From: a phage
Length of the DNA: 64,000 nt
Sequence record: OZ346175.1
Strand: one strand, 5' to 3'
Shown: piece by piece, positions 3,254-58,227 of the stretch
How the letters are laid out: the number at the start of each line of letters is the position of its first letter
How positions within the stretch are numbered: position 1 is the stretch's first letter
The notes under the pieces: generated by a model
Databases searched by the model: none
What the model was told of the DNA's origin: nothing
The model's input: the letters and a program-made list of their open reading frames with translations, nothing else
Position numbers and translations under genes: made by a program

Positions 3254-3553
3254 TTAGTCTGCCAACCTTAAATTGAAATTAACACCAAATTTTTCACATA
3301 CTTCCAACATATACTCAAGTGAAACATTCCCAGTGAGGTGGATTATGTTGGATACACGAGCTTGAGAGATACCACAAATTTTAGCAACTTGCTCTTGAGA
3401 AAGACCTCTGGATTTAATCTCTCTCTTAAAACGATGTGCAACGAAGTCTCTCATTTCGTCTACATCCATTGGACAAATATAACTCTCCATTTCAGCCTCT
3501 CTATCAGCCTCCCAATCATCTTGTGGGGCATAAGGGTCAAAAACCTCATTCAT
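3254..3553 (-). CDS. helix-turn-helix (XRE/Cro-like) DNA-binding protein
   Basis: HTH-like segment LSQEQVAKICGISQARVSNI; start trimmed to internal Met (MNEVF) of ORF 3254..3583. Confidence 0.55.
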   Translation of the reverse strand: MNEVFDPYAPQDDWEADREAEMESYICPMDVDEMRDFVAHRFKREIKSRGLSQEQVAKICGISQARVSNIIHLTGNVSLEYMLEVCEKFGVNFNLRLAD

Positions 3554-3758
3554 CTTTCTTCTTCCGTTTGCGTGAAGTGTCAATCAATGAATCTATGTTT
3601 GTAGCTCTAACCTTTTCACGTTCATCGTTAAGATAATCATCAAGAGCCTTTTCAATCTGTGAATCATCTTGACAGATGACTGTAAAGACTGTAAAGCCAT
3701 CTGTATCATCAATTATCTTACCATAACCGCTTCTGGGATGTAACTTTTTAAGAGCCAT
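3546..3758 (-). CDS. hypothetical protein
   Basis: 70-aa ORF, basic C-terminus. Confidence 0.4.
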   Translation of the reverse strand: MALKKLHPRSGYGKIIDDTDGFTVFTVICQDDSQIEKALDDYLNDEREKVRATNIDSLIDTSRKRKKKDE

Positions 3759-36492: not shown

Positions 36493-36501
36493 TTTCTTAA
36501 A

Positions 36502-36526
36502 AGGCTGCTTCGGCGGCCTTTTTTAT
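36502..36526 (+). terminator. rho-independent terminator
   Basis: aggctgc-ttcg-gcggcct hairpin followed by T-run. Confidence 0.55.
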
Positions 36527-36585
36527 TTGTATTTTGTGCAGAGTGCTGTATAATTGTTGTCACGATAAACTAAACAGGAGAACCA

Positions 36586-37134
36586 ATGAAGAAATTGATT
36601 CTAGGTTTGTGCTTAATGTTTACAGCACACTTATCTTATGCAGTTGACTGCCCAGAGCTATCAATTAGCCAAAAAGTAAACATGTTAAAAGCTTACCAGT
36701 ATGGTGAGAATAACATGGGTAAAGGTTGGGGTATCACTCTAGCTGCTATAGCCTTACAAGAGTCAGAGTTAGGTCTGAAGGTAGAGAATAAAAAGACACA
36801 TGATTATGGTATCTTCCAGAATCACTTGAAGACTGTTGTAAAGCGTAACAAAATCAGTCCTAATGTGGCTAAAAAGAAACTCTTAAAAGACTTTGACTAT
36901 GCTGCTAAGGAAACTCACAAAGAGCTTGAGTTTTGGACAAAGGTGCATGGTCAGCCAAAGTCAAAGAAGACTTTACAAAAAGTCTTAGCATCATATAATG
37001 CTGGGTATTCGTACAGAATCCCTAAAGCTAAGAAATATTCTCAAGATGTTTATAACAATATGAAAGTAATTGCTCAATGTGAATTTGCAACAAACATTTC
37101 TAAGGTAAACCATGAAAAAATTAAGAAAGTCTGA
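36586..37134 (+). CDS. secreted lytic transglycosylase-like protein
   Basis: Signal peptide (MKKLILGLCLMFTAHLSYA) and SLT-like motifs (QESELG; DYGIFQ; SYNAGYS). Confidence 0.55.
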   Translation: MKKLILGLCLMFTAHLSYAVDCPELSISQKVNMLKAYQYGENNMGKGWGITLAAIALQESELGLKVENKKTHDYGIFQNHLKTVVKRNKISPNVAKKKLLKDFDYAAKETHKELEFWTKVHGQPKSKKTLQKVLASYNAGYSYRIPKAKKYSQDVYNNMKVIAQCEFATNISKVNHEKIKKV

Positions 37135-37807
37135 TGAAGTATTGTGCCATGCTTATGACTTACATCCTCATGAGTTAGTTCTTGATTCCTGTGTATGGAC
37201 TCCAGAACAGTGCAGGGATTTTGAAGACACCGCAAGAGAAGTTGTATGTTCACTTGAAGAGTTCCACACATCAGAGCCAATTGTGAATGTTGTAGATAAA
37301 GAGACTGGACAAACTATAGGTGTAAGTCGTGATAGCTTAGTCATAGTCAATAAAGACCTTGTAGAAAAAGGTAACCTCATCTTAGCAGATATTGATGGTG
37401 TTCTTACAAATTTTAATCACGAAGATTGCTCAACGGAATTGACTGATGGGTCATTCTCACAGTACACTAATCTTCTTGACTCTGTAAGAGCAAAACCAAC
37501 GTATGTCTTTAGTATTATTGATGCAATTACTAATCATGCTGCCATTGGACTCTTGACAGCGAGAGGTGAATCTCAGAGAATACCTACTGAGATGTTTTTA
37601 AGGCACAATATAGAGCATGATTACTTGCTTTTTATGCGTGGTTTTGGAACTAACTCTATAAGTGCAGAAAGTTTGAAAGTGAGGATGATTCAATCTTGCA
37701 TTCTTCCTTACTTTAATATAGTATGTTTTATAGAAGATACAGAGAAGAATGTTCAGAAGGTAAACAGAATACTTCCACACATCAAAACCATGTTAGTTAA
37801 ACATTGA
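37112..37807 (+). CDS. HAD-superfamily phosphatase-like protein
   Basis: HAD motif I-like ILADIDGVL; true start may be an internal Met. Confidence 0.4.
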   Translation: MKKLRKSDEVLCHAYDLHPHELVLDSCVWTPEQCRDFEDTAREVVCSLEEFHTSEPIVNVVDKETGQTIGVSRDSLVIVNKDLVEKGNLILADIDGVLTNFNHEDCSTELTDGSFSQYTNLLDSVRAKPTYVFSIIDAITNHAAIGLLTARGESQRIPTEMFLRHNIEHDYLLFMRGFGTNSISAESLKVRMIQSCILPYFNIVCFIEDTEKNVQKVNRILPHIKTMLVKH

Positions 37808-37817
37808 GAGAAAACTT

Positions 37818-38282
37818 ATGAACAATATCATTACGGTAGCACTGGATGTTACGGCAAACAAATCTGAAGTAGTTCGTAACATTATCAAGAGCAACTTTGA
37901 GGGTAAAATTTTCCGTGCTGTCAACGTAAAAGCAGACGGTAACATCCGAGAGTATCGTGCTCTTTTGAATGTTAAGAAACACGTAAAAGGTTCTGGCTCA
38001 ACCACAGCACACAAAGAAAACCTGATGACTATCTATGATATGGGGATGGCTTCAGAATTAGGTGCTGAAGGTATCGTTAAAGAAGGTGCTCCGTATCGCT
38101 CTTTCAATCTGGAAACTGCTCTTATGCTTTCCTTTACAAGTGGTTCTAAAACAACTACTTATCTCTTTACTGATGCTGCAACGGTATCTGCTATCAAGGA
38201 TAGCACTGTCAAAGCTGGGGTAGCTGCTGCTGCAAAAGCTTCTTCGATGGCTGCAAATGTCCTTGCTAAAGTCCTCGGTTAA
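37818..38282 (+). CDS. hypothetical protein
   Basis: 154-aa ORF with good RBS spacing, followed by terminator. Confidence 0.5.
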   Translation: MNNIITVALDVTANKSEVVRNIIKSNFEGKIFRAVNVKADGNIREYRALLNVKKHVKGSGSTTAHKENLMTIYDMGMASELGAEGIVKEGAPYRSFNLETALMLSFTSGSKTTTYLFTDAATVSAIKDSTVKAGVAAAAKASSMAANVLAKVLG

Positions 38283-38294
38283 GGTTAAGATACA

Positions 38295-38315
38295 GGCTCC
38301 TTCGGGAGCCTTTTT
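38295..38315 (+). terminator. rho-independent terminator
   Basis: ggctcc-ttcg-ggagcc hairpin followed by T-run. Confidence 0.6.
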
Positions 38316-38334
38316 CATTTCAGGAGATTGTTAA

Positions 38335-38682
38335 ATGACATTTAAAGAGTTCTGTCAAGCTACTTTCATAATTGTTTTCTTAGTTGGGGCAGGTGTCTGG
38401 GGAGGATACTCTTACAGAGACTATCAAGTTGCTGAAGCTGAGCTAAATAATGAGAAACTAATAAGTGTTGCCAAAGATGCTTATCAGGAAGGTTTAGCCA
38501 CACTGAGCACCAATTACAAAAATGATTTGAAAGATGTGCTTGCTAAGAATAAGCATACAAAAGAGGTACTAACGTATGAAAAGACTAAGCCAGAGTTTTA
38601 TAATGTTTGTGTTACTGATAATTATGTCAGGGTGTTCAACGAACAAAGTGAGCAGTACATTCAAAAACTCCCAAGTAAGTGA
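38335..38682 (+). CDS. putative inner-membrane spanin (Rz-like)
   Basis: N-terminal transmembrane segment (FIIVFLVGAGVWGGY) then charged helical periplasmic region; lipoprotein gene embedded in its 3' end. Confidence 0.45.
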   Translation: MTFKEFCQATFIIVFLVGAGVWGGYSYRDYQVAEAELNNEKLISVAKDAYQEGLATLSTNYKNDLKDVLAKNKHTKEVLTYEKTKPEFYNVCVTDNYVRVFNEQSEQYIQKLPSK

Positions 38683-38845
38683 GAGTGATAAGTACACTCA
38701 AGAAGAATCACGGTATAGCATCAAAGGCAACACAGGTAGTGATGTAGCAGCAGCACTTGAGTTCTACCGTGACGGATTTTACCAGTGTACAATCAAAGCT
38801 AATAACCTTATTGACATGATTTTATTAGGGAATAAGCAGCAATGA
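38576..38845 (+). CDS. putative outer-membrane spanin lipoprotein (Rz1-like)
   Basis: Signal peptide with lipobox MSGC; starts inside the previous gene in another frame and extends past it. Confidence 0.45.
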   Translation: MKRLSQSFIMFVLLIIMSGCSTNKVSSTFKNSQVSESDKYTQEESRYSIKGNTGSDVAAALEFYRDGFYQCTIKANNLIDMILLGNKQQ

Positions 38846-39111
38846 CAGAGAACGAAGATACTTTCTATGTAGAAGGGTACTTACTGCTACCACGACCAAA
38901 AGAAACTTATATGCGGGTTGATTTCTCACCAACCATTATGGATAACGTGATGTGTCATATCTTTATGCAAGGTGTCACAGCACAACTTAAGCATGTTGGT
39001 AAAGAGTGCAAAATAAAGGTTGACACTCATCCAGAAATCAAAGAGAATCACTACACATGGTTCTTACCAGACTCTAAAGAAATCTTAGCAGTTCTTAAAA
39101 CGAGGAAGTAG
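38842..39111 (+). CDS. hypothetical protein
   Basis: 89-aa ORF. Confidence 0.4.
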   Translation: MTENEDTFYVEGYLLLPRPKETYMRVDFSPTIMDNVMCHIFMQGVTAQLKHVGKECKIKVDTHPEIKENHYTWFLPDSKEILAVLKTRK

Positions 39112-39113
39112 CT

Positions 39114-39368
39114 ATGCAGATTAATGGAAGAGACTTTGTAGCCGTTTACTATGATAACGATAAAGAAGTTGGTGTAGCACAGGTAACCTATGGCAATGGT
39201 AAGTGGCTATATGGAACAATCGCAGTAGTAGGAACAAGAAGTGATACAAAAACTTTTAAAGATTGTGTTGACCTTCTTGAAGAATCCATCCACAATCATT
39301 GGTGTCTGATATGGATGACTGACAATGAAGTGATGGAACGTTTCAAAAAAAAATTGATATCAACATAG
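39114..39368 (+). CDS. hypothetical protein
   Basis: 84-aa ORF. Confidence 0.4.
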   Translation: MQINGRDFVAVYYDNDKEVGVAQVTYGNGKWLYGTIAVVGTRSDTKTFKDCVDLLEESIHNHWCLIWMTDNEVMERFKKKLIST

Positions 39369-39416
39369 ACAGCATTGAGCATGTTGACTTGTATGAACTG
39401 ACTGAGAAGGTAAATT

Positions 39417-39644
39417 ATGAAAGTAATTCTAGCCAGAGATAAAAAGACACGGAAAATTATCCGGTCAGCAGTATTTATTGGAAGAAATGAAGTGATTCCT
39501 TTTACAGCAAATGATGCGATAGTCTACAGGAAAAAATTAGCATTCAGTTATTGCTTACGTGGCTTTATCTCCCAGCCATTGGAAGACTTTAAAAGTCGTT
39601 GTGGTAAAGGTATCATCATTCAAGAGGCAATTATCAATGGCTGA
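39417..39644 (+). CDS. hypothetical protein
   Basis: 75-aa ORF. Confidence 0.35.
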   Translation: MKVILARDKKTRKIIRSAVFIGRNEVIPFTANDAIVYRKKLAFSYCLRGFISQPLEDFKSRCGKGIIIQEAIING

Positions 39645-39837
39645 CTTCTGCAAAGACTGTTCTATCGAAATGTTTGGACGTGATACAGGTGACTTAAAAG
39701 GTCTTATCACTGAAGACGACTTTAAAGCTGGTTATGCAATGCCAGTAATCTGTGAAGGTTGTGGGTGTATCTGGGTAGACCACGAAGGGCAACGTGTAAA
39801 ACCTTCAGAGGATAAAGAATCTTGGGAGAGATGTTAA
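39637..39837 (+). CDS. hypothetical zinc-binding protein
   Basis: ORF 39559..39837 trimmed to MADFCKDCS...CEGCGC. Confidence 0.35.
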   Translation: MADFCKDCSIEMFGRDTGDLKGLITEDDFKAGYAMPVICEGCGCIWVDHEGQRVKPSEDKESWERC

Positions 39838-40623
39838 ATGGGTATTGTAAAAATCATCAATGGGGATATCTTCTCAGCATTTGATAAAGGTAAGTTTGAT
39901 ATTATTGGTCACGGTTGTAACTGTATGAACTTAATGGGTGCAGGTATCGCTGATAAGATTTCTAAACTTTACCCAAAAGCATATGAGACCGATACAGAAG
40001 TTTATCTGTATGCAGGTGGTATAAGTCACAAACCCTGTGAAAATTTGCTAGGCAATTTCTCTGTAGCACGTTTAAAACAAGGCCGTATAGCCAATCTTTA
40101 CACTCAGCTTAAGACTGGTAAAGATGCCCGATACAGTGATTTAGAGTCATCTTTGAAGCAACTTAACAGATACTGTGAAGTTAATCAGTTGAAGAAAGTT
40201 GGCTTACCTATGATTGGTGCAGGTATCGGCGGACTAGACCCTCAAGCCGTCACAGTTATCATTAATCAGGTGATGAAGAGTGTAGATGTTTATCTGTATG
40301 TCTACGAAGGAGAGATGTACCACAAGTTACGCTCAGGTTGGAAGAATTACTGTGAACCAGAATACTTTGCAGGTGTAGTAGTGTTCATAGACGACACAGT
40401 TACCCTCTTCAGACGAAGAAAAGGTAAGGTACATCAAAGTAACCCTCCGGTTGAAAAGATGTCTCTAAGTAACGCTCTAGTTACCCACCTGTCGAAGAGC
40501 AATCACAGGATTGCAGTAACATTTGGCAGTGATGCAGATACATATATCTATGCAAGAACTGATGAGGATATCGAGTTAATCTTCTCTTCACCAGAGCTTA
40601 CCTTCTTAGACGCAAAGAACTAA
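39838..40623 (+). CDS. macro-domain (ADP-ribose binding/processing) protein
   Basis: Macro-like motifs IIGHGCNCMNLMGAGIA and GLPMIGAGIGGLD in N-terminal 150 aa, plus about 110-aa C-terminal extension. Confidence 0.55.
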   Translation: MGIVKIINGDIFSAFDKGKFDIIGHGCNCMNLMGAGIADKISKLYPKAYETDTEVYLYAGGISHKPCENLLGNFSVARLKQGRIANLYTQLKTGKDARYSDLESSLKQLNRYCEVNQLKKVGLPMIGAGIGGLDPQAVTVIINQVMKSVDVYLYVYEGEMYHKLRSGWKNYCEPEYFAGVVVFIDDTVTLFRRRKGKVHQSNPPVEKMSLSNALVTHLSKSNHRIAVTFGSDADTYIYARTDEDIELIFSSPELTFLDAKN

Positions 40624-40692
40624 GAAACTTCGTAGTAAATTCACAATAGACTAAGCCTTTCTTATCTGGTAAATTTTTCAGGTAAGGAGGGC

Positions 40693-40880
40693 TTTTTCAT
40701 TTCAGATTTGTGCAGGTAGAGTTCTGTAGAGAAATCTATAGAGAAAATTTTGAACTCCAAAGAGAAAATTCATTCTCAAACTGTGCAGGTAATCTCCAAA
40801 GAGCTTTTTCATTTTCAAAACGTGCAGACCCCGCTCAGGTCGGGCAAGAAAAATCATTTTAGAATTGTGCAGGTAGGTGG
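40693..40880. repeat. iteron-like direct repeats (4-5 copies)
   Basis: Repeated unit tttcatt(t)tca(a/g)a-N2-3-gtgcaggta near 40693, 40765, 40803, 40848, with an extra gtgcaggtgg at 40878. Confidence 0.6.
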
Positions 40881-41051
40881 GTGCAGGTGGGGATGTCGCC
40901 ATTTCTCACAAGGCTACCACATCTGGAAATAAAAGTCAACAGAAAAATTTGTAGCGGATTGAAAAATAATTCTTGATTGTAGTTCTGTTTTGTGGTAGTC
41001 GTGCGCGCCCGTTTCATTCCATTTTTGCCAAAAATATTTTAAAAATTTTTA

Positions 41052-41080
41052 TTGACTCTTTGAACGGGTTTTTATAGTAT
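41052..41080 (+). promoter_or_regulatory. sigma70-type promoter
   Basis: TTGACT-N17-TAGTAT in AT-rich region upstream of first small ORF. Confidence 0.5.
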
Positions 41081-41133
41081 TTGCATCAGACGGGGCGACA
41101 AGCTCACTACCTTAAACTAGGAGAATCTAAAAA

Positions 41134-41340
41134 ATGCTTTACAGTCGTGAATTGATGGTTACAACCAACGTTAATACAAATGTAAAACGCTTTTACATGC
41201 AAATTTGTGGCGTATGGTCTAGAATATCAGAAGCTGACTATTGCAACTATGTAGAAACAGCTATAAACTCTAATTGCTACCTTACAAGAAATACTAAGAA
41301 GTTTACAAGGCAAACAGCGATTTACTATTACGATAAATAA
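41134..41340 (+). CDS. hypothetical small protein
   Basis: 68 aa; preceded by conserved leader taaactaggaga-N8-ATG. Confidence 0.45.
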   Translation: MLYSRELMVTTNVNTNVKRFYMQICGVWSRISEADYCNYVETAINSNCYLTRNTKKFTRQTAIYYYDK

Positions 41341-41428
41341 AAAGTACTTTACAAGGGGCTTATAGTTCGATAAAGTAAGCCCCAGATAAAGAGCTTTACT
41401 AACTAACCTTAAACTAGGAGATTCAAAA
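41341..41428 (+). repeat. intergenic cassette family A, copy 1
   Basis: aaagtactttacaaggggctta-loop-taagcccc-agataaagagctttac...cttaaactaggagattcaaaaATG. Confidence 0.7.
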
Positions 41429-41812
41429 ATGGCTTATCGTGCACCGAAATTCATCAACAAAGACAACTTTCGCAAAGTACTGGAGAAGTCACTTGATGAA
41501 AATTTTAAAGGTAACATTATCGTTGTTCACGCATTCAATTTTAAGTATGATGTAAACGGGAATAGAATCAACCATTACACGGCAACCATGTTAGATGGTA
41601 CACTTTCAAGTGAAAAAGCCGTACTAAATGCACTGGCAGGACGTGGAAAGGTATTAGTAAGATGTGATAAGAGACGTTATCAGGGCGGCGCATATGGTTA
41701 TAATGATGCTGTTTACCATCTTGAAAATATGGGCTATCAAGTAGAAAAAGCTGGAGCATCACAAATCATCGGCAGCGATGGTTATGTAACAATCTTCAAA
41801 ATTAACGAATAA
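41429..41812 (+). CDS. hypothetical protein
   Basis: 127 aa; cassette-preceded. Confidence 0.5.
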   Translation: MAYRAPKFINKDNFRKVLEKSLDENFKGNIIVVHAFNFKYDVNGNRINHYTATMLDGTLSSEKAVLNALAGRGKVLVRCDKRRYQGGAYGYNDAVYHLENMGYQVEKAGASQIIGSDGYVTIFKINE

Positions 41813-41897
41813 AGTACTTTACAAGGGGCTTAAAAGTTGATATCTTAAGCCCCAGATAAAGAGCTTTACCACTAAATCCTAAACTGGAGATTCTAAA
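41811..41897 (+). repeat. intergenic cassette family A, copy 2
   Basis: Same cassette; stem ggggcttaa/ttaagcccc with different loop. Confidence 0.7.
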
Positions 41898-42410
41898 ATG
41901 AAAACTGTAGACGCTACCTTTGAAGTTGTAAAAGAAAAATTCACCATTATTTATGAAGCTGTCAATTGCTTTGAAGCAAGCCATAATCTTGATAATTGGA
42001 AGTTTACAGATGACCATCAAGGCGGTGTGACGATTAAAAATCCTAACTGTCAGCGTAATGATTTTAAATATGCAATCCCTTTACATTACAGCCTTAAACA
42101 GCTTTCTAGTGACTATGCAAAACAAGGCCGGGAAAATCCATCAAAAGAGGCTTACGCAAGCTTACAGAAAGAACTAGAAAGAGATTTAGAGGCTTCAGAG
42201 TACAACCTTGCCGCGAAAGTTGTGGATGCAAACGGTAACACGGTTTTAGAAAGTTTTTATCTTGGTTATGCTTTCGATTGGTGCTATCGTGACGGTGAGG
42301 ATTTAGAAGATAGACTAAAAGAAGAGGTGAGCAATTCAGACGCAGAGGCTGAAGTATTAGAACGTTTGGAAGCATTAAAAGATTCAGTGATGAATATCTT
42401 TAAGAACTAA
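41898..42410 (+). CDS. hypothetical protein
   Basis: 170 aa; cassette-preceded; acidic C-terminus. Confidence 0.5.
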   Translation: MKTVDATFEVVKEKFTIIYEAVNCFEASHNLDNWKFTDDHQGGVTIKNPNCQRNDFKYAIPLHYSLKQLSSDYAKQGRENPSKEAYASLQKELERDLEASEYNLAAKVVDANGNTVLESFYLGYAFDWCYRDGEDLEDRLKEEVSNSDAEAEVLERLEALKDSVMNIFKN

Positions 42411-42500
42411 ATAGACCTCTTTACACGGGGCTAACAAGCTGATATGATAGCCCCAGATAAAGAGCTTTACCACTCAATCCTTAAACTAGGAGACTCAAAA
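42411..42500 (+). repeat. intergenic cassette family A, copy 3
   Basis: Stem ggggcta/tagcccc with compensatory change relative to copies 1 and 2. Confidence 0.65.
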
Positions 42501-42797
42501 ATGAAATTATCGAATAAAGTTCGTGAAAATCTAAGCAAGTTACTCAACAAAATTGATTTTATCGAGACATCAAGAAATAGCCATGATGTTATGGAATGGT
42601 TACACGGAAAAATAAAAGGTCATCGTGTAGTGATTTGCTTATGGAATAGTTGCAGGGAGTATAAAAACCCTGTATTGCAAGTCAATATTTACGATGATAC
42701 TTTTAAAAGTCCAGTAAAGTCTAAAAGTGACTTATTAGAAGCCTATGAGATAACTGTAAACGGCAAAGTGTCACGTAAAGAGGAAACACCATGTTAA
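42501..42797 (+). CDS. hypothetical protein
   Basis: ORF 42444..42797 trimmed to Met (MKLSNKV) placed after cassette RBS. Confidence 0.5.
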   Translation: MKLSNKVRENLSKLLNKIDFIETSRNSHDVMEWLHGKIKGHRVVICLWNSCREYKNPVLQVNIYDDTFKSPVKSKSDLLEAYEITVNGKVSRKEETPC

Positions 42798-43123
42798 TGA
42801 CTGGTATCACTGCAATCATTGCCATTCTCGCGCTGTATAAGGCATATAAAGCCTATAATCTAGCAAATAAGGCAATCACACAGCAGGTTAGCAATAACCT
42901 CGTAGAGAGCTTTCTAGGGCGTCTCAGTGATGAGCAAATAAAGCGGCTAGAGATGAGCTTCAGATATAAAGCGAAAACCTATCAGATAAGTGACATCTTC
43001 AAAGATGATTTTCAGTTAGTCGATGATTATAATTCTCTGATAAATGCTTTAAATATCAGTGACTTAAAAGACTACTACGCTGTAATTGTTCAAGAATTGA
43101 GCAAACGGAAACAAAATGTTTGA
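42791..43123 (+). CDS. hypothetical protein
   Basis: 110 aa; hydrophobic N-terminus (ITAIIAILALY). Confidence 0.45.
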   Translation: MLMTGITAIIAILALYKAYKAYNLANKAITQQVSNNLVESFLGRLSDEQIKRLEMSFRYKAKTYQISDIFKDDFQLVDDYNSLINALNISDLKDYYAVIVQELSKRKQNV

Positions 43124-43149
43124 CACTGGTTTTTAGATAGGTTAAATTA

Positions 43150-43212
43150 CACATCAACGGGGAGGGAATGACCTTCCCCACTAAATAAAGTCCTAAACTG
43201 GAGATTCAAAAA
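43150..43212 (+). repeat. intergenic cassette family B, copy 1
   Basis: atcaacggggagggaatgaccttccccactaaataaagtcctaaactggagattcaaaaaATG. Confidence 0.65.
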
Positions 43213-43380
43213 ATGTTTTGTGCAGGTGATAAAGTTGTCTGGAATGATATAGATGACGGTTTATGTACGAAAGTTGTTGTTATCTTAGAAATTGATTATA
43301 TCACTGGTGTTGCAACTGTAGCAGATAATGATATAATCTTTGACGTCTTAATTAGTGAACTGTCAAAATAAAATCCTTAA
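43213..43380 (+). CDS. hypothetical small protein
   Basis: 55-aa ORF (MFCAGDKVVWNDIDDG...) after family B cassette; below ORF-track size cut-off. Confidence 0.4.
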
Positions 43381-43396
43381 ACTAGGAGCTTTTAAA

Positions 43397-43669
43397 ATGT
43401 ATACTACTAACAACGGTCGCACCTTAAACGTAACCCTTCGTCACTATGTGAACGGTGTAATGCACTTCGAGGATTTACAAGCCGAACAACATATCTTAGA
43501 TTGGCAACTTGCAGGACTACAAAAAACTGCTACAGGATACGGGAAAAAGATTCCAACCAGTTGGAAAGTATACTACGAAGGCCGTTTGCGCAGAATTTAT
43601 CAGGATGTGCAAAGCAATAGCGCATCGAGTTACATCATAGTAAAAGGTAAAAAGCTGCATTTAGTGTAA
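43397..43669 (+). CDS. hypothetical protein
   Basis: ORF 43355..43669 trimmed to Met (MYTTNNGR) after taaactaggag leader. Confidence 0.45.
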   Translation: MYTTNNGRTLNVTLRHYVNGVMHFEDLQAEQHILDWQLAGLQKTATGYGKKIPTSWKVYYEGRLRRIYQDVQSNSASSYIIVKGKKLHLV

Positions 43670-43755
43670 AGTACTTTACAAGGGGCTTATAGTTCGATAA
43701 AGTAAGCCCCAGATAAAGAGCTTTACCACTAAATCCTAAATTGGAGAACTTAAAA
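43668..43755 (+). repeat. intergenic cassette family A, copy 4
   Basis: Near-identical to copy 1. Confidence 0.7.
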
Positions 43756-44160
43756 ATGGCTATTAATAACCGTGAGTTATCAATCTTAAAAGCACGTTTG
43801 ACCGTTAACCGGATTAATGTTATCACGTCATCAGCGCCTGATGAGACATTGCACAACATTATTGGGAAGATTCAAAGCGTTATCTTAGACGTTGAAAACG
43901 TAAAAAACTCATTGACTGACGTTGCAGCAGGTATCACGCTAGACGGTGCACAATATGAAATGACCGACATGTTAGGCAAATCTAAGGTAATGAATAAAGA
44001 GCTTGATTTGAAAATGTTTCGGTTTGCTGTTAAAGTGTGGCTATCTGTCGAGTATGACGCTAACTTTGCAATCGCTGACTTTTTCGCCACTTGGTTACAA
44101 CGTAATTTGACAAATCATGATTTTCGTGGTATCTGTGATGCAATTTATGCAGAACTCTAA
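43756..44160 (+). CDS. hypothetical protein
   Basis: ORF 43741..44160 trimmed to Met (MAINNRE) after cassette. Confidence 0.5.
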   Translation: MAINNRELSILKARLTVNRINVITSSAPDETLHNIIGKIQSVILDVENVKNSLTDVAAGITLDGAQYEMTDMLGKSKVMNKELDLKMFRFAVKVWLSVEYDANFAIADFFATWLQRNLTNHDFRGICDAIYAEL

Positions 44161-44194
44161 AAATTTATCTTGATTTTGGTTTTTAAAACAAGTA

Positions 44195-44261
44195 AATTAC
44201 TAATCAACGGGAGGTAATAGCCTCCCCACTAAACAAAGTCCTTAAACTAGGAGATTCAAAA
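44195..44261 (+). repeat. intergenic cassette family B, copy 2
   Basis: Variant stem gggagg-taatag-cctccc (compensatory relative to copy 1). Confidence 0.65.
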
Positions 44262-44465
44262 ATGGCTATTATTAACGGTTTAACCATTGAAACTACACAC
44301 ATCAAAGATATTAAAGTCGGTGATGTAGTTCTCTTTCACGGCGTAGAAAAAACCGTCACGGCGAAAGATATTACAGAGGACTCCTTCATGGGTAGGTCAC
44401 TCTTCGGTGATTCTTATTGCTTAGGTTACCGTGCAGTTTTAAAAGTTGTAAAAAATAACCGATAA
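44262..44465 (+). CDS. hypothetical small protein
   Basis: 67 aa; cassette-preceded. Confidence 0.45.
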   Translation: MAIINGLTIETTHIKDIKVGDVVLFHGVEKTVTAKDITEDSFMGRSLFGDSYCLGYRAVLKVVKNNR

Positions 44466-44550
44466 AGTACTTTACAAGGGGCTTATAGTTCGATAAAGTA
44501 AGCCCCAGATAAAGAGCTTTACCACTAAATCCTAAACTGGAGATTCTAAA
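44462..44550 (+). repeat. intergenic cassette family A, copy 5
   Basis: Near-identical to copy 1. Confidence 0.7.
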
Positions 44551-45093
44551 ATGAAATGCTTTCACGGTACTACCCAAGAAAATTTCCTCAACCTGATTAA
44601 TAACGGTGACAAGCCATCAGGTGCATGGAATTGTTCGGATATGGACGGCAATTTTTACGTGTACCCAGAAAATAAAATCTATGGCGACGATGAGGAAGAG
44701 ATAATCTCTGAAGGTATCCAGCAAGCGTTAGGTAATGCCACTATTACGGCCGCTTTCCAGATGAAAACCCAAAATATTGTTATCTTAGAACTTGATATCC
44801 CAGAGGATGACCTAAATGACGATTATTCTTGTGATAATATGTCTGGCGTAGCAAGTTTTACAGAATACTTCGATTTAAATTGGATTAAAAAGGTTTACGT
44901 AACAGAGTTTAACGCTATGTATTCGCCTTTTTGTCTTCCTTCATTGGATAACCCAAATTTAAATTATCTTGATGAGTCTCTGGAGCTTCTTGCTAAAAGT
45001 GTCCAACAGTCGGGCAGTATTCAGGTTTTTTGTGACATCATGGACACACTAACGGGAAACATCGCAGAAGAGGATTTAAAGAGCTTTTTCTAA
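44551..45093 (+). CDS. hypothetical acidic protein
   Basis: 180 aa, Asp/Glu-rich; cassette-preceded. Confidence 0.5.
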   Translation: MKCFHGTTQENFLNLINNGDKPSGAWNCSDMDGNFYVYPENKIYGDDEEEIISEGIQQALGNATITAAFQMKTQNIVILELDIPEDDLNDDYSCDNMSGVASFTEYFDLNWIKKVYVTEFNAMYSPFCLPSLDNPNLNYLDESLELLAKSVQQSGSIQVFCDIMDTLTGNIAEEDLKSFF

Positions 45094-45159
45094 AAACCTA
45101 TGCAATCGCCTTATAAACACTGATTAGCCCCTCACAGGGGCTTTTAAGAGGCTTAAATC

Positions 45160-45393
45160 ATGCTTACAACCGTTTATCTTATCCTTTCTATTTGTAATGG
45201 TCATTCATGTGATTTTAAAGGGCTTGAGGAGTTTACAGGAAGTAAAGAAAATGCTGTTCAGGTCTGTCAGATAGCAAGGCAAGACTACCCCGCCAGTGAT
45301 GACATACAATGTTACTTTAAGACAGAAGATGAAGATGGTATCTATTTCGATAGTGTAGACGGTCAATATGAAATAATTATAGAAAAAGACTAG
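45160..45393 (+). CDS. hypothetical small protein
   Basis: 77 aa; preceded by small hairpin gcccctcacaggggc. Confidence 0.4.
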   Translation: MLTTVYLILSICNGHSCDFKGLEEFTGSKENAVQVCQIARQDYPASDDIQCYFKTEDEDGIYFDSVDGQYEIIIEKD

Positions 45394-45409
45394 ACAAGCC
45401 TGATAAAAA

Positions 45410-45483
45410 TCTGTAAATTACTAATCAACGGGGAGGGAATGACCTTCCCCACTAAACAAAATCCTAAACTGGAGATTTAAAAA
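45410..45483 (+). repeat. intergenic cassette family B, copy 3
   Basis: ctgtaaattactaatcaacggggagggaatgaccttcccc...ctaaactggagatttaaaaaATG. Confidence 0.65.
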
Positions 45484-45825
45484 ATGGCTTATGTAACCGT
45501 AATTACTGATAAAGAGGGTTCATCTTGGTCAACTCAGGTTAGTGATAAGATGTCGCCTATGCAGTGCCTAAAATACTTTGAACAGTGGAACAAAGGCGAG
45601 GACACAAGCCCCTTTCAAGTGATGAAGATTATCCATGTAGACAATGAAGGGAAGAAAACGACTTTAAACAGTGAGTTCTATGCAACCCGATTTGAAACGA
45701 GATGTAAAACGATGAAGTTATTACGTGAATCCGGTTATGCCCATATCGCCGCGTTAATCTGGGATGACCTGCTAAAAAGTCAGCGTATCAGCTATGTAAA
45801 ACCTGAAAAAATATTCATCAGTTAA
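45484..45825 (+). CDS. hypothetical protein
   Basis: 113 aa; cassette-preceded. Confidence 0.5.
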   Translation: MAYVTVITDKEGSSWSTQVSDKMSPMQCLKYFEQWNKGEDTSPFQVMKIIHVDNEGKKTTLNSEFYATRFETRCKTMKLLRESGYAHIAALIWDDLLKSQRISYVKPEKIFIS

Positions 45826-45857
45826 TCAATAACTTACAAAAAACTTTCAAAAAAGTA

Positions 45858-45886
45858 TTGACAACGCCCCTTGACATTGGTAGATT
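45858..45886 (+). promoter_or_regulatory. sigma70-type promoter
   Basis: TTGACA-N17-TAGATT. Confidence 0.45.
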
Positions 45887-45984
45887 TGTTCGAGGGGGTT
45901 TATCTAAAAGGGATTAACTTAAAAGATTCTTTATAGATAAACTTAAAAAAATTGCTTGCAATCAGATATCAAAACAAGTAAATT

Positions 45985-46046
45985 ACTAATCAACGGGATG
46001 TAATAGCCTCCCCACTAAACAAAGTCCTTAAACTAGGAGATTCAAA
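45985..46046 (+). repeat. intergenic cassette family B, copy 4
   Basis: Same as copy 2 with one loop substitution. Confidence 0.65.
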
Positions 46047-46577
46047 ATGAACAAATTTCAAGCTATCAACTACATTCGCTCAAATGCTGTAATGTCTAAG
46101 CCTGTTAAAGATACCTATGAATTTCGCTGCAATGGGGTACACTTTGCAACCATCACTAAATCAGAAAACGGGGCTTATTACGTTCATCGTCGTAATGTTG
46201 CAACCGTTGTAGTCTCTCACTTTATGCAAGCTGTAGCAGAGTTATTACCGCTATTCTTAGGGATTTACTTGGATGAGTGTAAAAACGTTCACAACCACGT
46301 TAAAAACCTTTTAAACGGTTATAAAATGGCTTATGAACGTTCTATCAAGTCCTTAAACAAGTTCTATAAAGCCCCTGTAAATACTGTTTCAATGGCCTAC
46401 GCTGCAAATGGTGAAAGAGTAAACCTATCCAATGTGGAAGATATCGAGCTTTACGACCATCGGCCTAACGGTTACTCTCAGACACTCGGTGAAGGTTTAA
46501 CGTTCAATATCAAGAACTTAGAAAAAACTTTAAAAGATATTGAAAAAGATATTGACGAGACAATCAAAAATCTGTAA
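46047..46577 (+). CDS. hypothetical protein
   Basis: 176 aa; cassette-preceded. Confidence 0.5.
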   Translation: MNKFQAINYIRSNAVMSKPVKDTYEFRCNGVHFATITKSENGAYYVHRRNVATVVVSHFMQAVAELLPLFLGIYLDECKNVHNHVKNLLNGYKMAYERSIKSLNKFYKAPVNTVSMAYAANGERVNLSNVEDIELYDHRPNGYSQTLGEGLTFNIKNLEKTLKDIEKDIDETIKNL

Positions 46578-46645
46578 ATTGTCAATCAACGGGGAGGGAA
46601 TGACCTTCCCCCCTAAATAAAATCCTTAAACTAGGAGATTCAAAA
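46575..46645 (+). repeat. intergenic cassette family B, copy 5
   Basis: ctgtaaattgtcaatcaacggggagggaatgaccttcccc... Confidence 0.65.
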
Positions 46646-46894
46646 ATGGCAACTATCCGCGCAACTGTTAACGAATTTGGCTTCTACTCTCTGGATGTTA
46701 AATTTGACCTTGTAGGCACTGACAACGCCTTTGAAATGGTGAAAGGTCTTATCAGTCAGACCATCAAGGACTATAATCCTTCTGATGAGTTCTGGAAAGA
46801 AACAAAACAGGAAGTTCTCAAAGAGGGTTATTCTTATCACTATTGGGGTGAAAAAATTGTCTCTCTGTACTACGACAAAGAAGGCACTAACTAA
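46646..46894 (+). CDS. hypothetical protein
   Basis: 82 aa; last gene of rightward block. Confidence 0.5.
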   Translation: MATIRATVNEFGFYSLDVKFDLVGTDNAFEMVKGLISQTIKDYNPSDEFWKETKQEVLKEGYSYHYWGEKIVSLYYDKEGTN

Positions 46895-46932
46895 ACGCCG
46901 CAACGGGGCTAAATAGCCCCAGATACCTTTAC

Positions 46933-46965: not shown

Positions 46966-48570
46966 AAACCCCTTATACAACCCTTTCCCTTTCCTTTCCT
47001 TTCCTTTCCAGAATCTTATCAGACCTTAAAAAGCAATAACTTTACAGCCTTTTACTAAGTCAATTAATTGGCCTTATTAATAAGCCCTTAAACATAAGCC
47101 AATAACCCCAGAAAGGGGGCAACCCATTTAAACGCCATATAAAGCCCTATAACGGCCTTTTTAACCTAACTTAAGGGATTGCATTACCTCACCCTTAAAA
47201 GCCCTTTATAAAGCTTCACAGAGCCTTAAAAGAATCTTATAAGGGTGTAAGCTTTATTATCTCGTTAGCTATCTTGTGAACTACTAAACAACCCCCTTGA
47301 TAGTAACTGAAAAGTATGTTATAGGGGCTTTAAAGTTACTTTGAAGTAGCTTAAAAGTTACGTAAATGCTAGCCCCCTTAACATTTTCTTAACAATTTCT
47401 TAACAAACTCTACATAGTTATGCTTGTTAGGGACTTGTTAGCCCCTTGTTAAATCTCTGTTACAACCATGTAAAAGCCTTGTAAGAGTCTTTGACATAGC
47501 CTTTAAAGCCCCTGTAAAGCCCTATAAAGAGCTTTCTACATAGTTGGGGTGTAATTACTAGGAAGAGGCTTAAAAGAGCTTACAAGGAGCTATAGAGAGC
47601 TTTTAAGAGGTATGTTAAGAGAATCACTAAGAGGGAAAGGGAACGATAAGAAAAGAGATAGTGACCATGTAATAGCTTGTTAAAAAGGTTAAACACTTGT
47701 TAGGAACTTGTTAATTGTCTTAACAAAATAACCCTTTAAAATTAACTTGTTAGCTCTTGTTAGTCATCTGTTAAGCATCTGTAAAGACTATTCAGCACTT
47801 GTTAATTGGTATTGTTACCAATCCCTAGAAAACTGTTAAGCCCTTGTTAGTTCTGTTAAGAAACTGTTAAGACCTTTGAAGAGTTGTTAAGAAGATGTGA
47901 GAGCTGTTAAGAGATTGTTAAGGATATTTTAAAATTTTGCAAAGTACTTGTAAGGGAGTTGTTAAGGGCTACCAAGCAGATATACATCCTAATCAGATAT
48001 TTTTCAGTTCCTTCAAAGACCCTAAAAAATGACTTGATAGTCCTATTTTATAAAAATTTTAAGATTCTGAATAATTACCTAGACAGTCTTTTAAAAATAC
48101 AGGTAATAACAGGCTTATAAGATACCTTGTTAGTACCGTGTTAGACCTTGTGAGATAAGGTCTGTAAAGATATTCCTGTTAAGTTTGTTAAAACAGTCTA
48201 TATAGAGGCTTAGTAATACCTAGTGAACACCTATAGAGAGTCACATAGCTAACCTAGAGATTAAGAGGTGTATAGGAGCTTCTAAGAGTGTGTAGAGAGA
48301 TGATTAAGGTGATTGTATAGGTTGTTTAGAAGGCTTGTTAGAAGAGTGTTTAGAGGGCTATTTAGAAGGGCTATACAGAGGGCTATTAAGACCACTAGAT
48401 AGTTACTAAGATACTATATAGTACTATATAACTATATAGAGAGTAAGATTAAGAAGGTTGTTAAGGAGGATAGATACTTTGTTCACATATGATGGTGGCC
48501 CAGAGGTTGGGACAACCGATAAAATTTTATAAAAATTAAAAAGCCCCCAATTAAGGAGGCTCTTAAGATA
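46966..48570. repeat. ORF-free repeat-dense region between convergent transcription units
   Basis: No ORF of 60 aa or more in any frame; (CCTTT)n tract near 46980-47010; more than 20 copies of (c)ttgttag/(c)tgttaag around 47395-47930; gggctat(t/a)(t/c)aga(a/g)g and ctatata repeats around 48300-48450. Confidence 0.7.
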
Positions 48571-58108: not shown

Positions 58109-58227
58109 GTTCTACATAGAAGCGAAATGAGAGCTTTTCTAAGATACTGAAAAATATTTTAAAAAAGTTCTTGACAATCACTAAAAAAATAATGTTAAAG
58201 TGGTTACATAGAGTTTGAAAAGTTTAT

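What the first reader, a model, noticed from the sequence alone, without database searches (positions are those of the whole stretch)
40693..40880. Iteron-like array upstream of the small-ORF block
Four to five copies of a unit of about 27 bp (tttcatt(t)tca(a/g)a-N-gtgcaggta) at irregular spacing, followed by an AT-rich stretch and a TTGACT-N17-TAGTAT promoter. This is the architecture of an iteron-type origin or of clustered operator sites.
Basis: seen in the sequence. Interest (0 to 1): 0.55.

Follow-up and report, generated by a model that had tools for sequence, protein, structure and literature searches.

The report
Conserved protein-binding repeat array, Felix O1 phages
Four same-strand copies of a two-part DNA motif sit between a transcription terminator and a strong early promoter in a Felix O1-type phage; the array is kept across the whole phage subfamily, so it is almost certainly a docking site for an unidentified DNA-binding protein, but nothing found here shows it is a replication origin.

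Summary
The core TCATTYY-N6-GTGCAG occurs exactly four times in the window, all on the + strand within 176 bp (0 expected by chance). There is also a fifth half-copy that relatives do not keep.

The window is a Felixounavirus. The array lies in the 510-bp gap between the macro-domain 'phosphatase' gene and the first small early ORF. Unit 1 is fused to the T-run of a strong intrinsic terminator.

The array sits at the same syntenic position in Felixounavirus, Suspvirus, Mooglevirus, Kolesnikvirus and one further lineage, with 3-5 units. Unit cores are less diverse than codon positions 1+2 of the neighbouring gene, while the spacers vary.

A whole-genome scan finds only one other site: a solitary unit spanning -38 to -20 of a promoter just after the rIIB terminator.

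The 'AT-rich stretch' matches an RNA-polymerase UP element at -59 to -38 of the conserved TTGACT-N17-TAGTAT promoter, and it is not unusually easy to melt. No initiator gene lies nearby, and unit spacing is not in helical phase.

Best reading: a cluster of binding sites for an unidentified sequence-specific protein that controls transcription at an operon boundary. An iteron-type origin remains a live rival. Structured RNA, coding sequence and terminal repeat are rejected or unlikely. I found no description of the array in the literature.

The parts
40653..40697 (+). Intrinsic terminator ending the rIIB-distal operon (Felix O1 terminator t13). It has a 17-bp stem, an 8-nt loop and a T-run. The T-run is also the T5 tract of unit 1.
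   Evidence: terminator scan. Relatives annotate it as a terminator. Whichard 2010 Table 2 lists it as t13, -21.8 kcal/mol.
40693..40719 (+). Unit 1: T5 + TCATTTC + N6 + GTGCAGGTAG.
   Evidence: Nucleotide diversity pi=0.107 across 25 relatives.
40765..40792 (+). Unit 2: AAAAT + TCATTCT + N6 + GTGCAGGTAA. It is preceded by a repeated block, CTCCAAAGAG (40755-40764).
   Evidence: pi=0.074.
40805..40827 (+). Unit 3: T5 + TCATTTT + N6 + GTGCAG, with no GGTA tail. It is preceded by CTCCAAAGAG (40794-40803).
   Evidence: pi=0.064, with the core invariant in 25 sequences.
40849..40877 (+). Unit 4: A5 + TCATTTT + N6 + GTGCAGGTAGG. It is preceded by AGGTCGGGCAAG. This unit is the clear orthologue of unit 3 in Erwinia phages (AAGGTCTGGCAAGAAAAATCATTTTCGATTTGTGCATAG).
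   Evidence: pi=0.053.
40881..40891 (+). Half-unit GTGCAGGTGGG. It belongs to the variable segment and is not conserved.
40878..40930 (.). Variable segment with two alleles among relatives. It is G-rich in this window. In Felix O1, SUSP2 and Mordin it is C-rich (CCCCTCTCCCCC...).
   Evidence: pi=0.396.
40931..41005 (.). Conserved non-coding block (AAAAGTCAA.AGAAAAATTTGTAG...TTCTTGATT...TTTTGTGGTAGTCGTG). Its function is unknown.
   Evidence: pi=0.101. Also present in Mordin.
41028..41049 (+). AT-rich stretch CCAAAAATATTTTAAAAATTTT at -59 to -38 of the promoter. It matches the UP-element consensus NNAAAWWTWTTTTNNNAAANNN at 16 of 17 specified positions.
   Evidence: Read from the sequence. The consensus is from my own knowledge (Estrem et al. 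1998), not a tool result. The same 16-mer recurs at 58150-58165 upstream of a TTGACA.
41052..41080 (+). Sigma-70-type promoter TTGACT-N17-TAGTAT for the small-ORF block.
   Evidence: Both hexamers are conserved in 6 relatives, Mordin and Erwinia phages (TTGACT-N17-TATATT).
36499..36554 (+). Second locus of the same motif. The rIIB terminator (t2, 36499-36522) is followed by a solitary unit TTTTTTATTTGTATTTTGTGCAG (36519-36541). Seven nucleotides further on is a perfect TATAAT (36549-36554). The unit therefore spans about -38 to -20 of a promoter-like site.
   Evidence: (12.6 bits, about the 95th percentile of null maxima). In Mooglevirus the site scores 22-30 bits and the promoter reads TTGAAA-N16-TATAAT. 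TGTGCAG is kept in four lineages while the 5 nt on each side vary.
3254..3583 (-). Candidate binding protein only; no link to the array is shown. It is the sole protein annotated as a transcriptional regulator in this kind of genome, with a Cro/C1-type HTH.
   Evidence: Pfam HTH_3, E=6.1e-10. The LinBro record annotates it as 'transcriptional regulator'.

Best explanation
The array is a cis-acting cluster of four recognition sites for one sequence-specific DNA-binding protein. That protein has not been identified and is probably phage-encoded.

Each site has an asymmetric two-block core, TCATTTT and GTGCAG. The block centres are about 12 bp apart, roughly one helical turn. A 5-bp A- or T-tract flanks the core on the 5' side. 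Inferred: one protein molecule, or two tandem domains, reads each ~19-bp core, and neighbouring units about 40 bp apart are filled cooperatively into a nucleoprotein complex.

The complex would sit on the terminator that ends the 4.1-kb rIIB-distal operon. It would lie 185-360 bp upstream of the UP-element-bearing sigma-70 promoter of the early small-ORF block. The same protein would also bind a fifth site across -38 to -20 of the promoter that starts that operon.

Inferred function: a temporal transcription switch or insulator. It would set when the operon promoter fires, reinforce the operon boundary as a roadblock at the terminator, and modulate the adjacent early promoter.

Shown: the sites, their conservation, their positions relative to terminators and promoters, and their uniqueness in the genome. 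Inferred: that a protein binds, which protein it is, and the direction of regulation.
For: - **Non-random array.** There are 4 exact cores against 0.00 expected, all on one strand.
- **Same position across genera.** The array sits between the macro-domain gene's terminator and the early promoter in Felixounavirus, Suspvirus, Mooglevirus (spacing 75/41/45), Kolesnikvirus (37/37/39) and a divergent 88-kb lineage with 5 units.
- **Footprint-like conservation.** Nucleotide diversity (pi) is 0.05-0.11 in units and 0.13-0.30 in spacers. In the neighbouring gene it is 0.17 at codon positions 1+2 and 0.29 at position 3. Between genera the spacers are unalignable while the cores persist.
- **DNA-level reading.** The 5' flank is T5 or A5 interchangeably. 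This fits recognition of DNA shape and not an RNA strand.
- **Unique in the genome.** A position weight matrix scan of the window, the 24.5 kb of Felix O1 outside the window, and 45 kb of Mordin finds only the array plus one solitary site.
- **The solitary site is at a promoter.** It overlaps the -35/spacer region of a promoter with a perfect TATAAT. TGTGCAG is conserved there in four lineages amid variable flanks.
- **Not a structured RNA.** Fold z-scores are -0.98 and -0.83 and there is no Rfam hit.
- **Not a conserved ORF.** No ORF is consistent across genera, and the 37-bp spacing in Erwinia phages breaks the reading frame.
- **The gap is transcribed.** The former 'ORF14' in this gap gave an RT-PCR product.
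Against: - No binding protein is identified. The neighbouring genes have no DNA-binding domain.
- The one annotated HTH regulator lies 37 kb away, with no unit near it.
- The four array units do not overlap any promoter element. They lie at -185 to -360, so simple repression or class I/II activation of the early promoter is not the geometry seen.
- The solitary promoter site scores only 12.6 bits in this window, about the 95th percentile of null maxima. It was not found in the Erwinia-phage loci, so the link to promoters may be lineage-specific.
- A regulator with only two target loci in an 87-kb genome is unusual.
- Units 1 and the solitary site could share sequence simply because both derive from duplicated terminator tails.
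Confidence: 0.4

Rival explanations
1. Iteron-type origin of replication. A phage initiator would bind the four direct repeats and open nearby DNA, or load the T7-like primase-helicase, possibly helped by transcription from the adjacent promoter.
For: - There are four same-orientation direct repeats of an asymmetric ~19-27-bp site, with A/T tracts as at lambda ori.
- It is a single cluster per genome.
- It is conserved across the subfamily.
- It lies in a long non-coding gap next to a strong promoter and an AT-rich tract.
- Copy number varies from 3 to 5 between lineages, as iteron arrays do.
- No origin has been described for Felix O1 in the papers searched.
Against: - Spacing of 37, 39, 41, 45 and 73-75 bp is not a multiple of the helical repeat and differs between genera.
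- The AT-rich tract is about 150 bp from the last unit, sits exactly where an UP element should, and recurs at the tRNA-block promoter.
- Its duplex stability ranks only in the least-stable 2.3% of 60-mers. It is not among the 15 least stable sites in the window.
- No Rep/O-like initiator is adjacent or annotated in a relative's genome.
- The replisome is T7-like (primase-helicase plus DNA polymerase). In T7 that type starts from promoters plus AT-rich DNA without iterons (my own knowledge).
- A fifth unit sits inside a promoter, which an origin does not explain.
Confidence: 0.2
2. RNA-level element. The units would act in a transcript, either read-through from the upstream operon or an antisense RNA. 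They would be linear binding sites for an RNA-binding protein, or a non-coding RNA.
For: All units share one strand, which is the sense strand of both flanking operons. The gap is transcribed (RT-PCR of former ORF14). A leftward TTGACG-N18-TATACT promoter-like site faces the array in Erwinia phages (read by eye).
Against: - No significant fold on either strand (z = -0.98 and -0.83).
- No Rfam match.
- The A5/T5 flank swaps between units and lineages, which is not strand-consistent.
- A strong terminator precedes the array.
- The leftward promoter-like site is poor in Felixounavirus and Mooglevirus (read by eye).
Confidence: 0.08
3. Injection-pause (first-step-transfer) signal. The array would mark the inner boundary of the terminal DNA segment that enters the cell first, as the injection-stop region does in phage T5.
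For: The direct terminal repeat maps to 47372-47973. The array is therefore 7.1-7.3 kb from the right physical end, about 8% of an ~88-kb genome. Everything between the array and that end is the promoter-rich small-ORF early block. T5 transfers about 8% first and has a repeat-rich stop region (my own knowledge).
Against: The match is purely positional. I found no report of two-step DNA transfer for Felix O1-type phages in the papers searched. It is unknown which end enters first. The fifth unit at the rIIB promoter is not explained.
Confidence: 0.05
4. No sequence-specific function. The units would be decayed duplications of a terminator tail, or intrinsically curved AT-rich DNA upstream of a promoter. 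Alternatively the region would encode a small protein.
For: - Unit 1 and the solitary unit both start in a terminator T-run. The 3' arm of the terminator (AGGTAAGGAGGGC) resembles the block ahead of Erwinia unit 4 (AGGTCTGGAGGGG).
- Several Felix O1 terminators end in T-run + YATTT.
- Some annotators call small ORFs here.
Against: - Unit cores are more conserved than codon positions 1+2 of the adjacent gene, and they survive between genera whose spacers are unalignable.
- GTGCA is invariant and is not needed for curvature.
- Several frames are open on both strands at once, the called ORFs differ between genera, and 37-bp spacing shifts the frame.
- The ORF products have no significant Pfam family match.
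Confidence: 0.07

Closest known systems
Iterons of lambda ori and of plasmid origins (F, P1, R6K, pPS10)
   Same: Several direct repeats of an asymmetric ~19-bp site lie in one orientation, with flanking A/T tracts. There is a single cluster per replicon, and copy number varies between relatives.
   Different: The period is about 37-45 bp and out of helical phase, not about 22 bp. No initiator gene overlaps or adjoins the array. The nearby AT-rich tract looks like a promoter UP element. One extra copy lies inside a promoter.
Asymmetric or direct-repeat operators of phage regulators (P1 C1 operators; lambda CII TTGC-N6-TTGC sites; T4 MotA boxes)
   Same: The site is asymmetric, with two short conserved blocks separated by 6 variable bases. 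The solitary copy covers the -35/spacer region of a promoter, as CII sites and MotA boxes do.
   Different: The known examples are scattered over many promoters. Here four of the five copies are clustered away from any promoter element, and no cognate protein is known. The comparison rests on my own knowledge, not on a tool test.
T5 injection-stop region at the end of the first-step-transfer DNA
   Same: It is a repeat-rich non-coding region about 8% of the genome length from one physical end. It bounds a block of small early genes that have host-type promoters.
   Different: The terminal repeat here is only about 0.6 kb, against about 10 kb in T5. No two-step transfer is known for this group. 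The repeat motifs are unrelated.
F-plasmid sopC-type centromere arrays
   Same: Head-to-tail repeats with a ~40-bp period, each holding one protein site.
   Different: This is a virulent phage with no ParAB-type genes annotated. The sopC sites are inverted repeats, whereas these are asymmetric.

Membership tests
Iteron-type replication origin | Three or more direct repeats of a 17-22-bp protein site in one orientation | tested here: met
   Four units on the + strand, with a 19-bp core and about 27 bp including flanks.
Iteron-type replication origin | Regular spacing that keeps the sites in helical phase (about 22 bp, or multiples of about 10.5 bp) | tested here: not met
   Spacing is 73/39/45 here, 75/41/45 in Mooglevirus and 37/37/39 in Erwinia phages.
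Iteron-type replication origin | An easily melted AT-rich unwinding element next to the repeats | tested here: inconclusive
   The nearest AT-rich tract starts about 150 bp after unit 4 and abuts the -35 hexamer. The 60-mer at 41025-41085 ranks in the least-stable 2.3% and is not among the window's 15 least stable sites. The same 16-mer occurs at another promoter.
Iteron-type replication origin | A cognate initiator gene overlapping or adjacent to the repeats | tested here: not met
   The 20 neighbouring ORFs scanned gave no DNA-binding or Rep-type family in Pfam or PHROGs. No initiator is annotated in LinBro. Many ORFs are of unknown function, so absence is not proven.
Iteron-type replication origin | Origin activity | not testable with these tools
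   Needs marker-frequency analysis, 2D gels or a plasmid amplification assay.
Operator cluster of a transcription factor | Repeated sites under stronger constraint than the surrounding DNA | tested here: met
   pi is 0.05-0.11 in units, 0.13-0.30 in spacers and 0.29 at third codon positions. The cores persist across genera.
Operator cluster of a transcription factor | Sites positioned on or next to promoter elements | tested here: inconclusive
   The solitary unit covers -38 to -20 of a TATAAT promoter. The four array units lie 185-360 bp upstream of the 41052 promoter and overlap none.
Operator cluster of a transcription factor | An identified cognate DNA-binding protein | tested here: inconclusive
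   The only candidate is the HTH_3 protein at 3254-3583(-). No evidence links it to the motif.
RNA polymerase UP element (the AT-rich stretch only) | Match to NNAAAWWTWTTTTNNNAAANNN at -59 to -38 of a sigma-70 promoter | tested here: met
   41028-41049 matches 16 of 17 specified positions at the right distance from TTGACT (sequence, promoter). The consensus is recalled from the literature, not from a tool.
Structured non-coding RNA | A fold more stable than shuffles, or a match to a known family | tested here: not met
   z = -0.98 (+) and -0.83 (-). No Rfam match reached a family's gathering score.
Direct terminal repeat / packaging site | Coincides with the physical genome ends | tested here: not met
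   The annotated 581-bp terminal repeat of Pr103Blw maps to window 47372-47973, about 6.5 kb downstream. The gap occurs once per record in 223 records.
T5-type injection-stop signal | Two-step DNA transfer that halts at the element | not testable with these tools
   Only the position (about 8% from the right end) could be checked.

The most novel reading that the evidence does not exclude
The array is a DNA-entry pause signal. The terminal ~7.2 kb (about 8% of the genome), which holds only the promoter-rich small-ORF block, would enter first and be expressed. A protein bound at the four units, or the DNA structure there, would hold back the rest of the genome until early proteins are made. That would be a T5-like two-step transfer in a myovirus with a 0.6-kb terminal repeat.
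Probability: 0.05. Interest if true: 0.8.

Novelty: new member of a known kind. Interest (0 to 1): 0.45.

Why it matters
Felix O1 is a classic diagnostic and biocontrol phage. Its relatives are used in phage therapy and in model collections. Even so, its genome paper states that how transcription is temporally regulated is not known, and I found no described origin.

This array is, with the adjacent 75-bp block, the most conserved non-coding feature examined at this locus. It is unique in the genome apart from one promoter-linked copy. It therefore gives a concrete handle: a 190-bp bait to fish out the binding protein, and a defined target to mutate. Whatever binds it is likely a key regulator or initiator for the whole Ounavirinae subfamily. 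The site also matters for engineering these phages, because insertions in this 'empty' gap could disrupt it.

Tried and rejected
1. **Terminal repeat or pac site: rejected.** The terminal repeat maps to 47372-47973. The UAB_Phi87 record does not start at its terminal repeat, so it gave no help.
2. **Known RNA family: none**. Stable RNA fold: none on either strand.
3. **Coding sequence: unlikely.** ORFs are inconsistent between genera and several frames are open at once. The ORF products have no significant Pfam match.
4. **Each unit as a sigma-70 promoter: rejected by eye.** There is no -10 hexamer at the spacing seen at the solitary site (GTGCAG-N7-TATAAT), and the scan tool calls none.
5. 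**Host-factor consensus sites, compared by eye from memory only.** I checked IHF, DnaA box, Fis, sigma-E, sigma-32, sigma-54, CsrA and the EcoKI site.
   - None fits all units.
   - Erwinia-phage units (TGTGCATAG) match the relaxed DnaA box at 8 of 9 positions, but Felixounavirus units (TGTGCAGGT) match only 6 of 9. I have therefore not claimed a DnaA site.
6. **Wider occurrence.**
   - The two-unit pattern in IMG/VR hit only ~84-94-kb Ounavirinae-type contigs or fragments of them, plus one unrelated 10-kb contig with a 50-bp tandem duplication upstream of a terminase operon.
   - In 185,579 bacterial and archaeal genomes it hit only unrelated tandem repeats in distant metagenome-assembled genomes, none in enterobacteria.
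7. **Tandem Repeats Finder.** It does not see the array in this window because the copies are too unlike. It does see a 37-bp period in the Erwinia phage.
8. **Literature.** Searches for a Felix O1 origin, iterons, transcription-start maps or a transcriptome found nothing on this element.
9. **Not attempted.** I did not compute DNA curvature, because I could not vouch for the model parameters from memory.

Full report
**What the window is.** The region matches 223 phage records at 80-97% identity, nearly all Felixounavirus (Felix O1-like myophages of Escherichia and Salmonella). The finding lies in a 510-bp non-coding gap, 40624-41133. Upstream is the macro-domain 'phosphatase' gene (39838-40623; Pfam Macro, PHROG phosphatase). 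Downstream is the first small ORF of a block of about 20 small genes of unknown function (41134-46900). In Felix O1 itself this is the gap between ORF13 and ORF15.

**Checking the observation.** The sequence and the repeat finder show four full units on the + strand.
- Each unit has a 5-bp T- or A-tract, then TCATTYY, six variable bases, and GTGCAG. Three of the four continue with GTAR.
- The exact pattern TCATTYY-N6-GTGCAG occurs four times in the 64-kb window on both strands. All four are here, and 100 shuffles gave none.
- GTGCAGGT occurs 11 times against 1.6 expected, four of them in the array. Of the other seven, three lie in ORFs and follow codon phase (sequence and ORF coordinates) and four have no unit-like upstream half.
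- The 'fifth copy' (GTGCAGGTGGG, 40881-40891) is only a half-unit inside a segment that differs between relatives. Four is the right count.
- The promoter TTGACT-N17-TAGTAT is at 41052-41080.

**Anatomy of the gap.** From left to right:
- A strong intrinsic terminator at 40653-40697, with a 17-bp stem. It is t13 in the Felix O1 paper. Its T-run is the T-tract of unit 1.
- Units 1-4, with start-to-start spacing of 73, 39 and 45 bp.
- A 53-bp variable segment with two alleles among relatives.
- A 75-bp conserved block of unknown role.
- An AT-rich stretch, then the promoter.

Units 2-4 are each preceded by a further repeated block, CTCCAAAGAG or AGGTCGGGCAAG. The true repeat is therefore a head-to-tail unit of about 40 bp.

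**Related sequences.**
- The array sits at the same syntenic position in five lineages: Felixounavirus and Suspvirus (spacing 73/39/45), a Felixounavirus subset with three units (75/45), Mooglevirus (75/41/45), Kolesnikvirus phages of Erwinia (a regular 37/37/39) and a divergent 88-kb IMG/VR lineage with five units.
- Between genera the spacers cannot be aligned. The core TCATTTT-N6-GTGCA persists; the next bases are GG in the Felix O1 group and TAG in the Erwinia group.
- The 5' tract is T5 in some units and A5 in others, in no fixed order.
- Across 25 alignable sequences, nucleotide diversity (pi) is 0.05-0.11 in the units and 0.13-0.30 in the spacers. It is 0.40 in the variable segment. In the neighbouring gene it is 0.17 at codon positions 1+2 and 0.29 at position 3. 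The downstream small ORF is far more variable, at 0.42-0.51.

This is the pattern of a phylogenetic footprint: short blocks under strong constraint in otherwise free DNA.

**Uniqueness and a fifth site.** I built a position weight matrix from 59 distinct units and scanned with it.
- The four array units score 32-41 bits. This is circular, because they helped build the matrix.
- The only other hit above 12 bits is at 36517, at 12.6 bits. That is about the 95th percentile of the maxima in shuffled sequence.
- This site lies directly after the rIIB terminator. It reads TTTTTTATTTGTATTTTGTGCAG and is followed after 7 nt by a perfect TATAAT. It therefore covers about -38 to -20 of a promoter-like site.
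- The same site is present in every Felixounavirus locus that covers this spot. In Mooglevirus it scores 22-30 bits, and the promoter there reads TTGAAA-N16-TATAAT.
- Across four lineages TGTGCAG is kept while the five bases on each side change.
- No further site exists in the 24.5 kb of Felix O1 that the window does not cover, nor in the first 45 kb of Mordin. The site was not found in the Erwinia-phage loci.
- The 4.1-kb operon from 36586 to 40623 therefore has one unit at its promoter and four at its terminator.

**Testing the origin reading.**
- The AT-rich stretch does not adjoin the repeats; it starts about 150 bp after unit 4.
- Bases 41028-41049 (CCAAAAATATTTTAAAAATTTT) lie at -59 to -38 of the promoter. 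They match the UP-element consensus at 16 of 17 specified positions. The consensus is from my own knowledge.
- The same 16-mer sits upstream of the TTGACA that precedes the tRNA block.
- By nearest-neighbour stability, the 60-mer covering it ranks in the least-stable 2.3% of the window but not among the 15 least stable sites.
- Unit spacing is not in helical phase.
- The 20 neighbouring ORFs scanned have no DNA-binding or initiator family. A PHROG-style annotated relative lists no initiator.
- The replisome is of the T7 type: primase-helicase and DNA polymerase.

None of this excludes an origin. Three of the five defining features of an iteron origin are not met or are unclear, and the one decisive feature, origin activity, cannot be tested here.

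**Other readings tested.**
- **Terminal repeat.** The 581-bp terminal repeat annotated in phage Pr103Blw maps to window 47372-47973, so the array is not at a genome end. This puts the array 7.1-7.3 kb from the right physical end, about 8% of the genome, with only the small-ORF block in between. That resembles the first-step-transfer segment of T5 (my own knowledge), but only in position.
- **RNA.** There is no Rfam family and no fold better than shuffles on either strand.
- **Coding.** Two or three frames are open on each strand at once. The ORFs that some annotators call differ between genera. The 37-bp period in Erwinia phages shifts the frame from unit to unit.
- **Host or plasmid counterparts.** A scan of 185,579 bacterial and archaeal genomes found only unrelated tandem repeats.

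**Conclusion.** The array is real, non-random and under strong purifying selection across the subfamily Ounavirinae.

The best-supported reading is a cluster of binding sites for one sequence-specific DNA-binding protein that acts on DNA. The promoter-embedded fifth copy and the fusion of unit 1 to a terminator both point to transcription control at an operon boundary. I put that specific reading at about 0.4. The broader claim, that a protein binds these units, I put at about 0.75.

An iteron-type origin is a serious rival at about 0.2. The binding protein is unknown. The only annotated regulator in this kind of genome is a Cro/C1-type HTH protein at 3254-3583 on the minus strand. It is a candidate and no more.

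I found no description of the array in the literature I could search. The Felix O1 genome paper lists other repeats but not this one.

Noticed in passing
window 47372-47973: The segment homologous to the annotated direct terminal repeat is packed with about 25 copies of CTTGTTAG/CTGTTAAG at roughly 11-bp spacing. Inverted copies (CTTAACA) sit at its left edge, 47377-47410. This may be a packaging or end-recognition array.
   Followed up: partly
L031 (minus strand), about 5620-5770 in the coordinates printed: In a divergent 88-kb lineage the five-unit array is followed directly by a run of about 10 TTAACA motifs. This is the same hexamer that fills the terminal repeat of the window's phage.
   Followed up: no
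window 41030-41045 and 58150-58165: An identical 16-mer, AAAAATATTTTAAAAA, lies just upstream of the -35 hexamers of two strong promoter-like sites: the small-ORF block and the tRNA block. It looks like a shared UP element.
   Followed up: partly
window 41100-46900 (copies near 43143, 44191, 45413, 45977): Each small ORF of the early block is preceded by a repeated 60-70-bp cassette carrying a TTTACA-N17-TAAAGT promoter-like site and a conserved ribosome-binding region. This resembles the promoter-early stem-loop cassettes that shuffle genes in T4-type phages.
   Followed up: no
window 40878-40930: The segment after unit 4 has two unrelated alleles among close relatives. The commoner one (Felix O1, SUSP2, Mordin) is CCCCTCTCCCCCTCTTACTCCCCCTCCCCCC, which could form a G-quadruplex on the minus strand.
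   Followed up: no
window 40931-41005: A 75-bp non-coding block between the array and the promoter is as conserved as the units (pi=0.10). It has no obvious promoter or repeat, and its function is unknown.
   Followed up: partly
window 3254-3583 (minus strand): A 109-aa protein with a Cro/C1-type helix-turn-helix (Pfam HTH_3, 6e-10). It is the only product annotated as a transcriptional regulator in a related genome.
   Followed up: partly
GenBank MG065664.1 and GU169904.1 (hits): Records named 'Campylobacter phage A132' and 'Staphylococcus phage SA1' carry this Felixounavirus region at 88-93% identity. They are probably mis-assigned or chimeric records.
   Followed up: no
window 48396-48455 and 48022-48081: The least stable 60-mers of the whole window lie just inside the left genome end, next to the terminal repeat. 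The first is rich in ACTATATA repeats.
   Followed up: no
window 41134-41340: The first small ORF after the gap is hypervariable among relatives (pi 0.42-0.51) and is missing or replaced in some (EcoM2, VpaE1_ev035). The conserved array thus marks a boundary between a stable module and a fast-changing one.
   Followed up: partly
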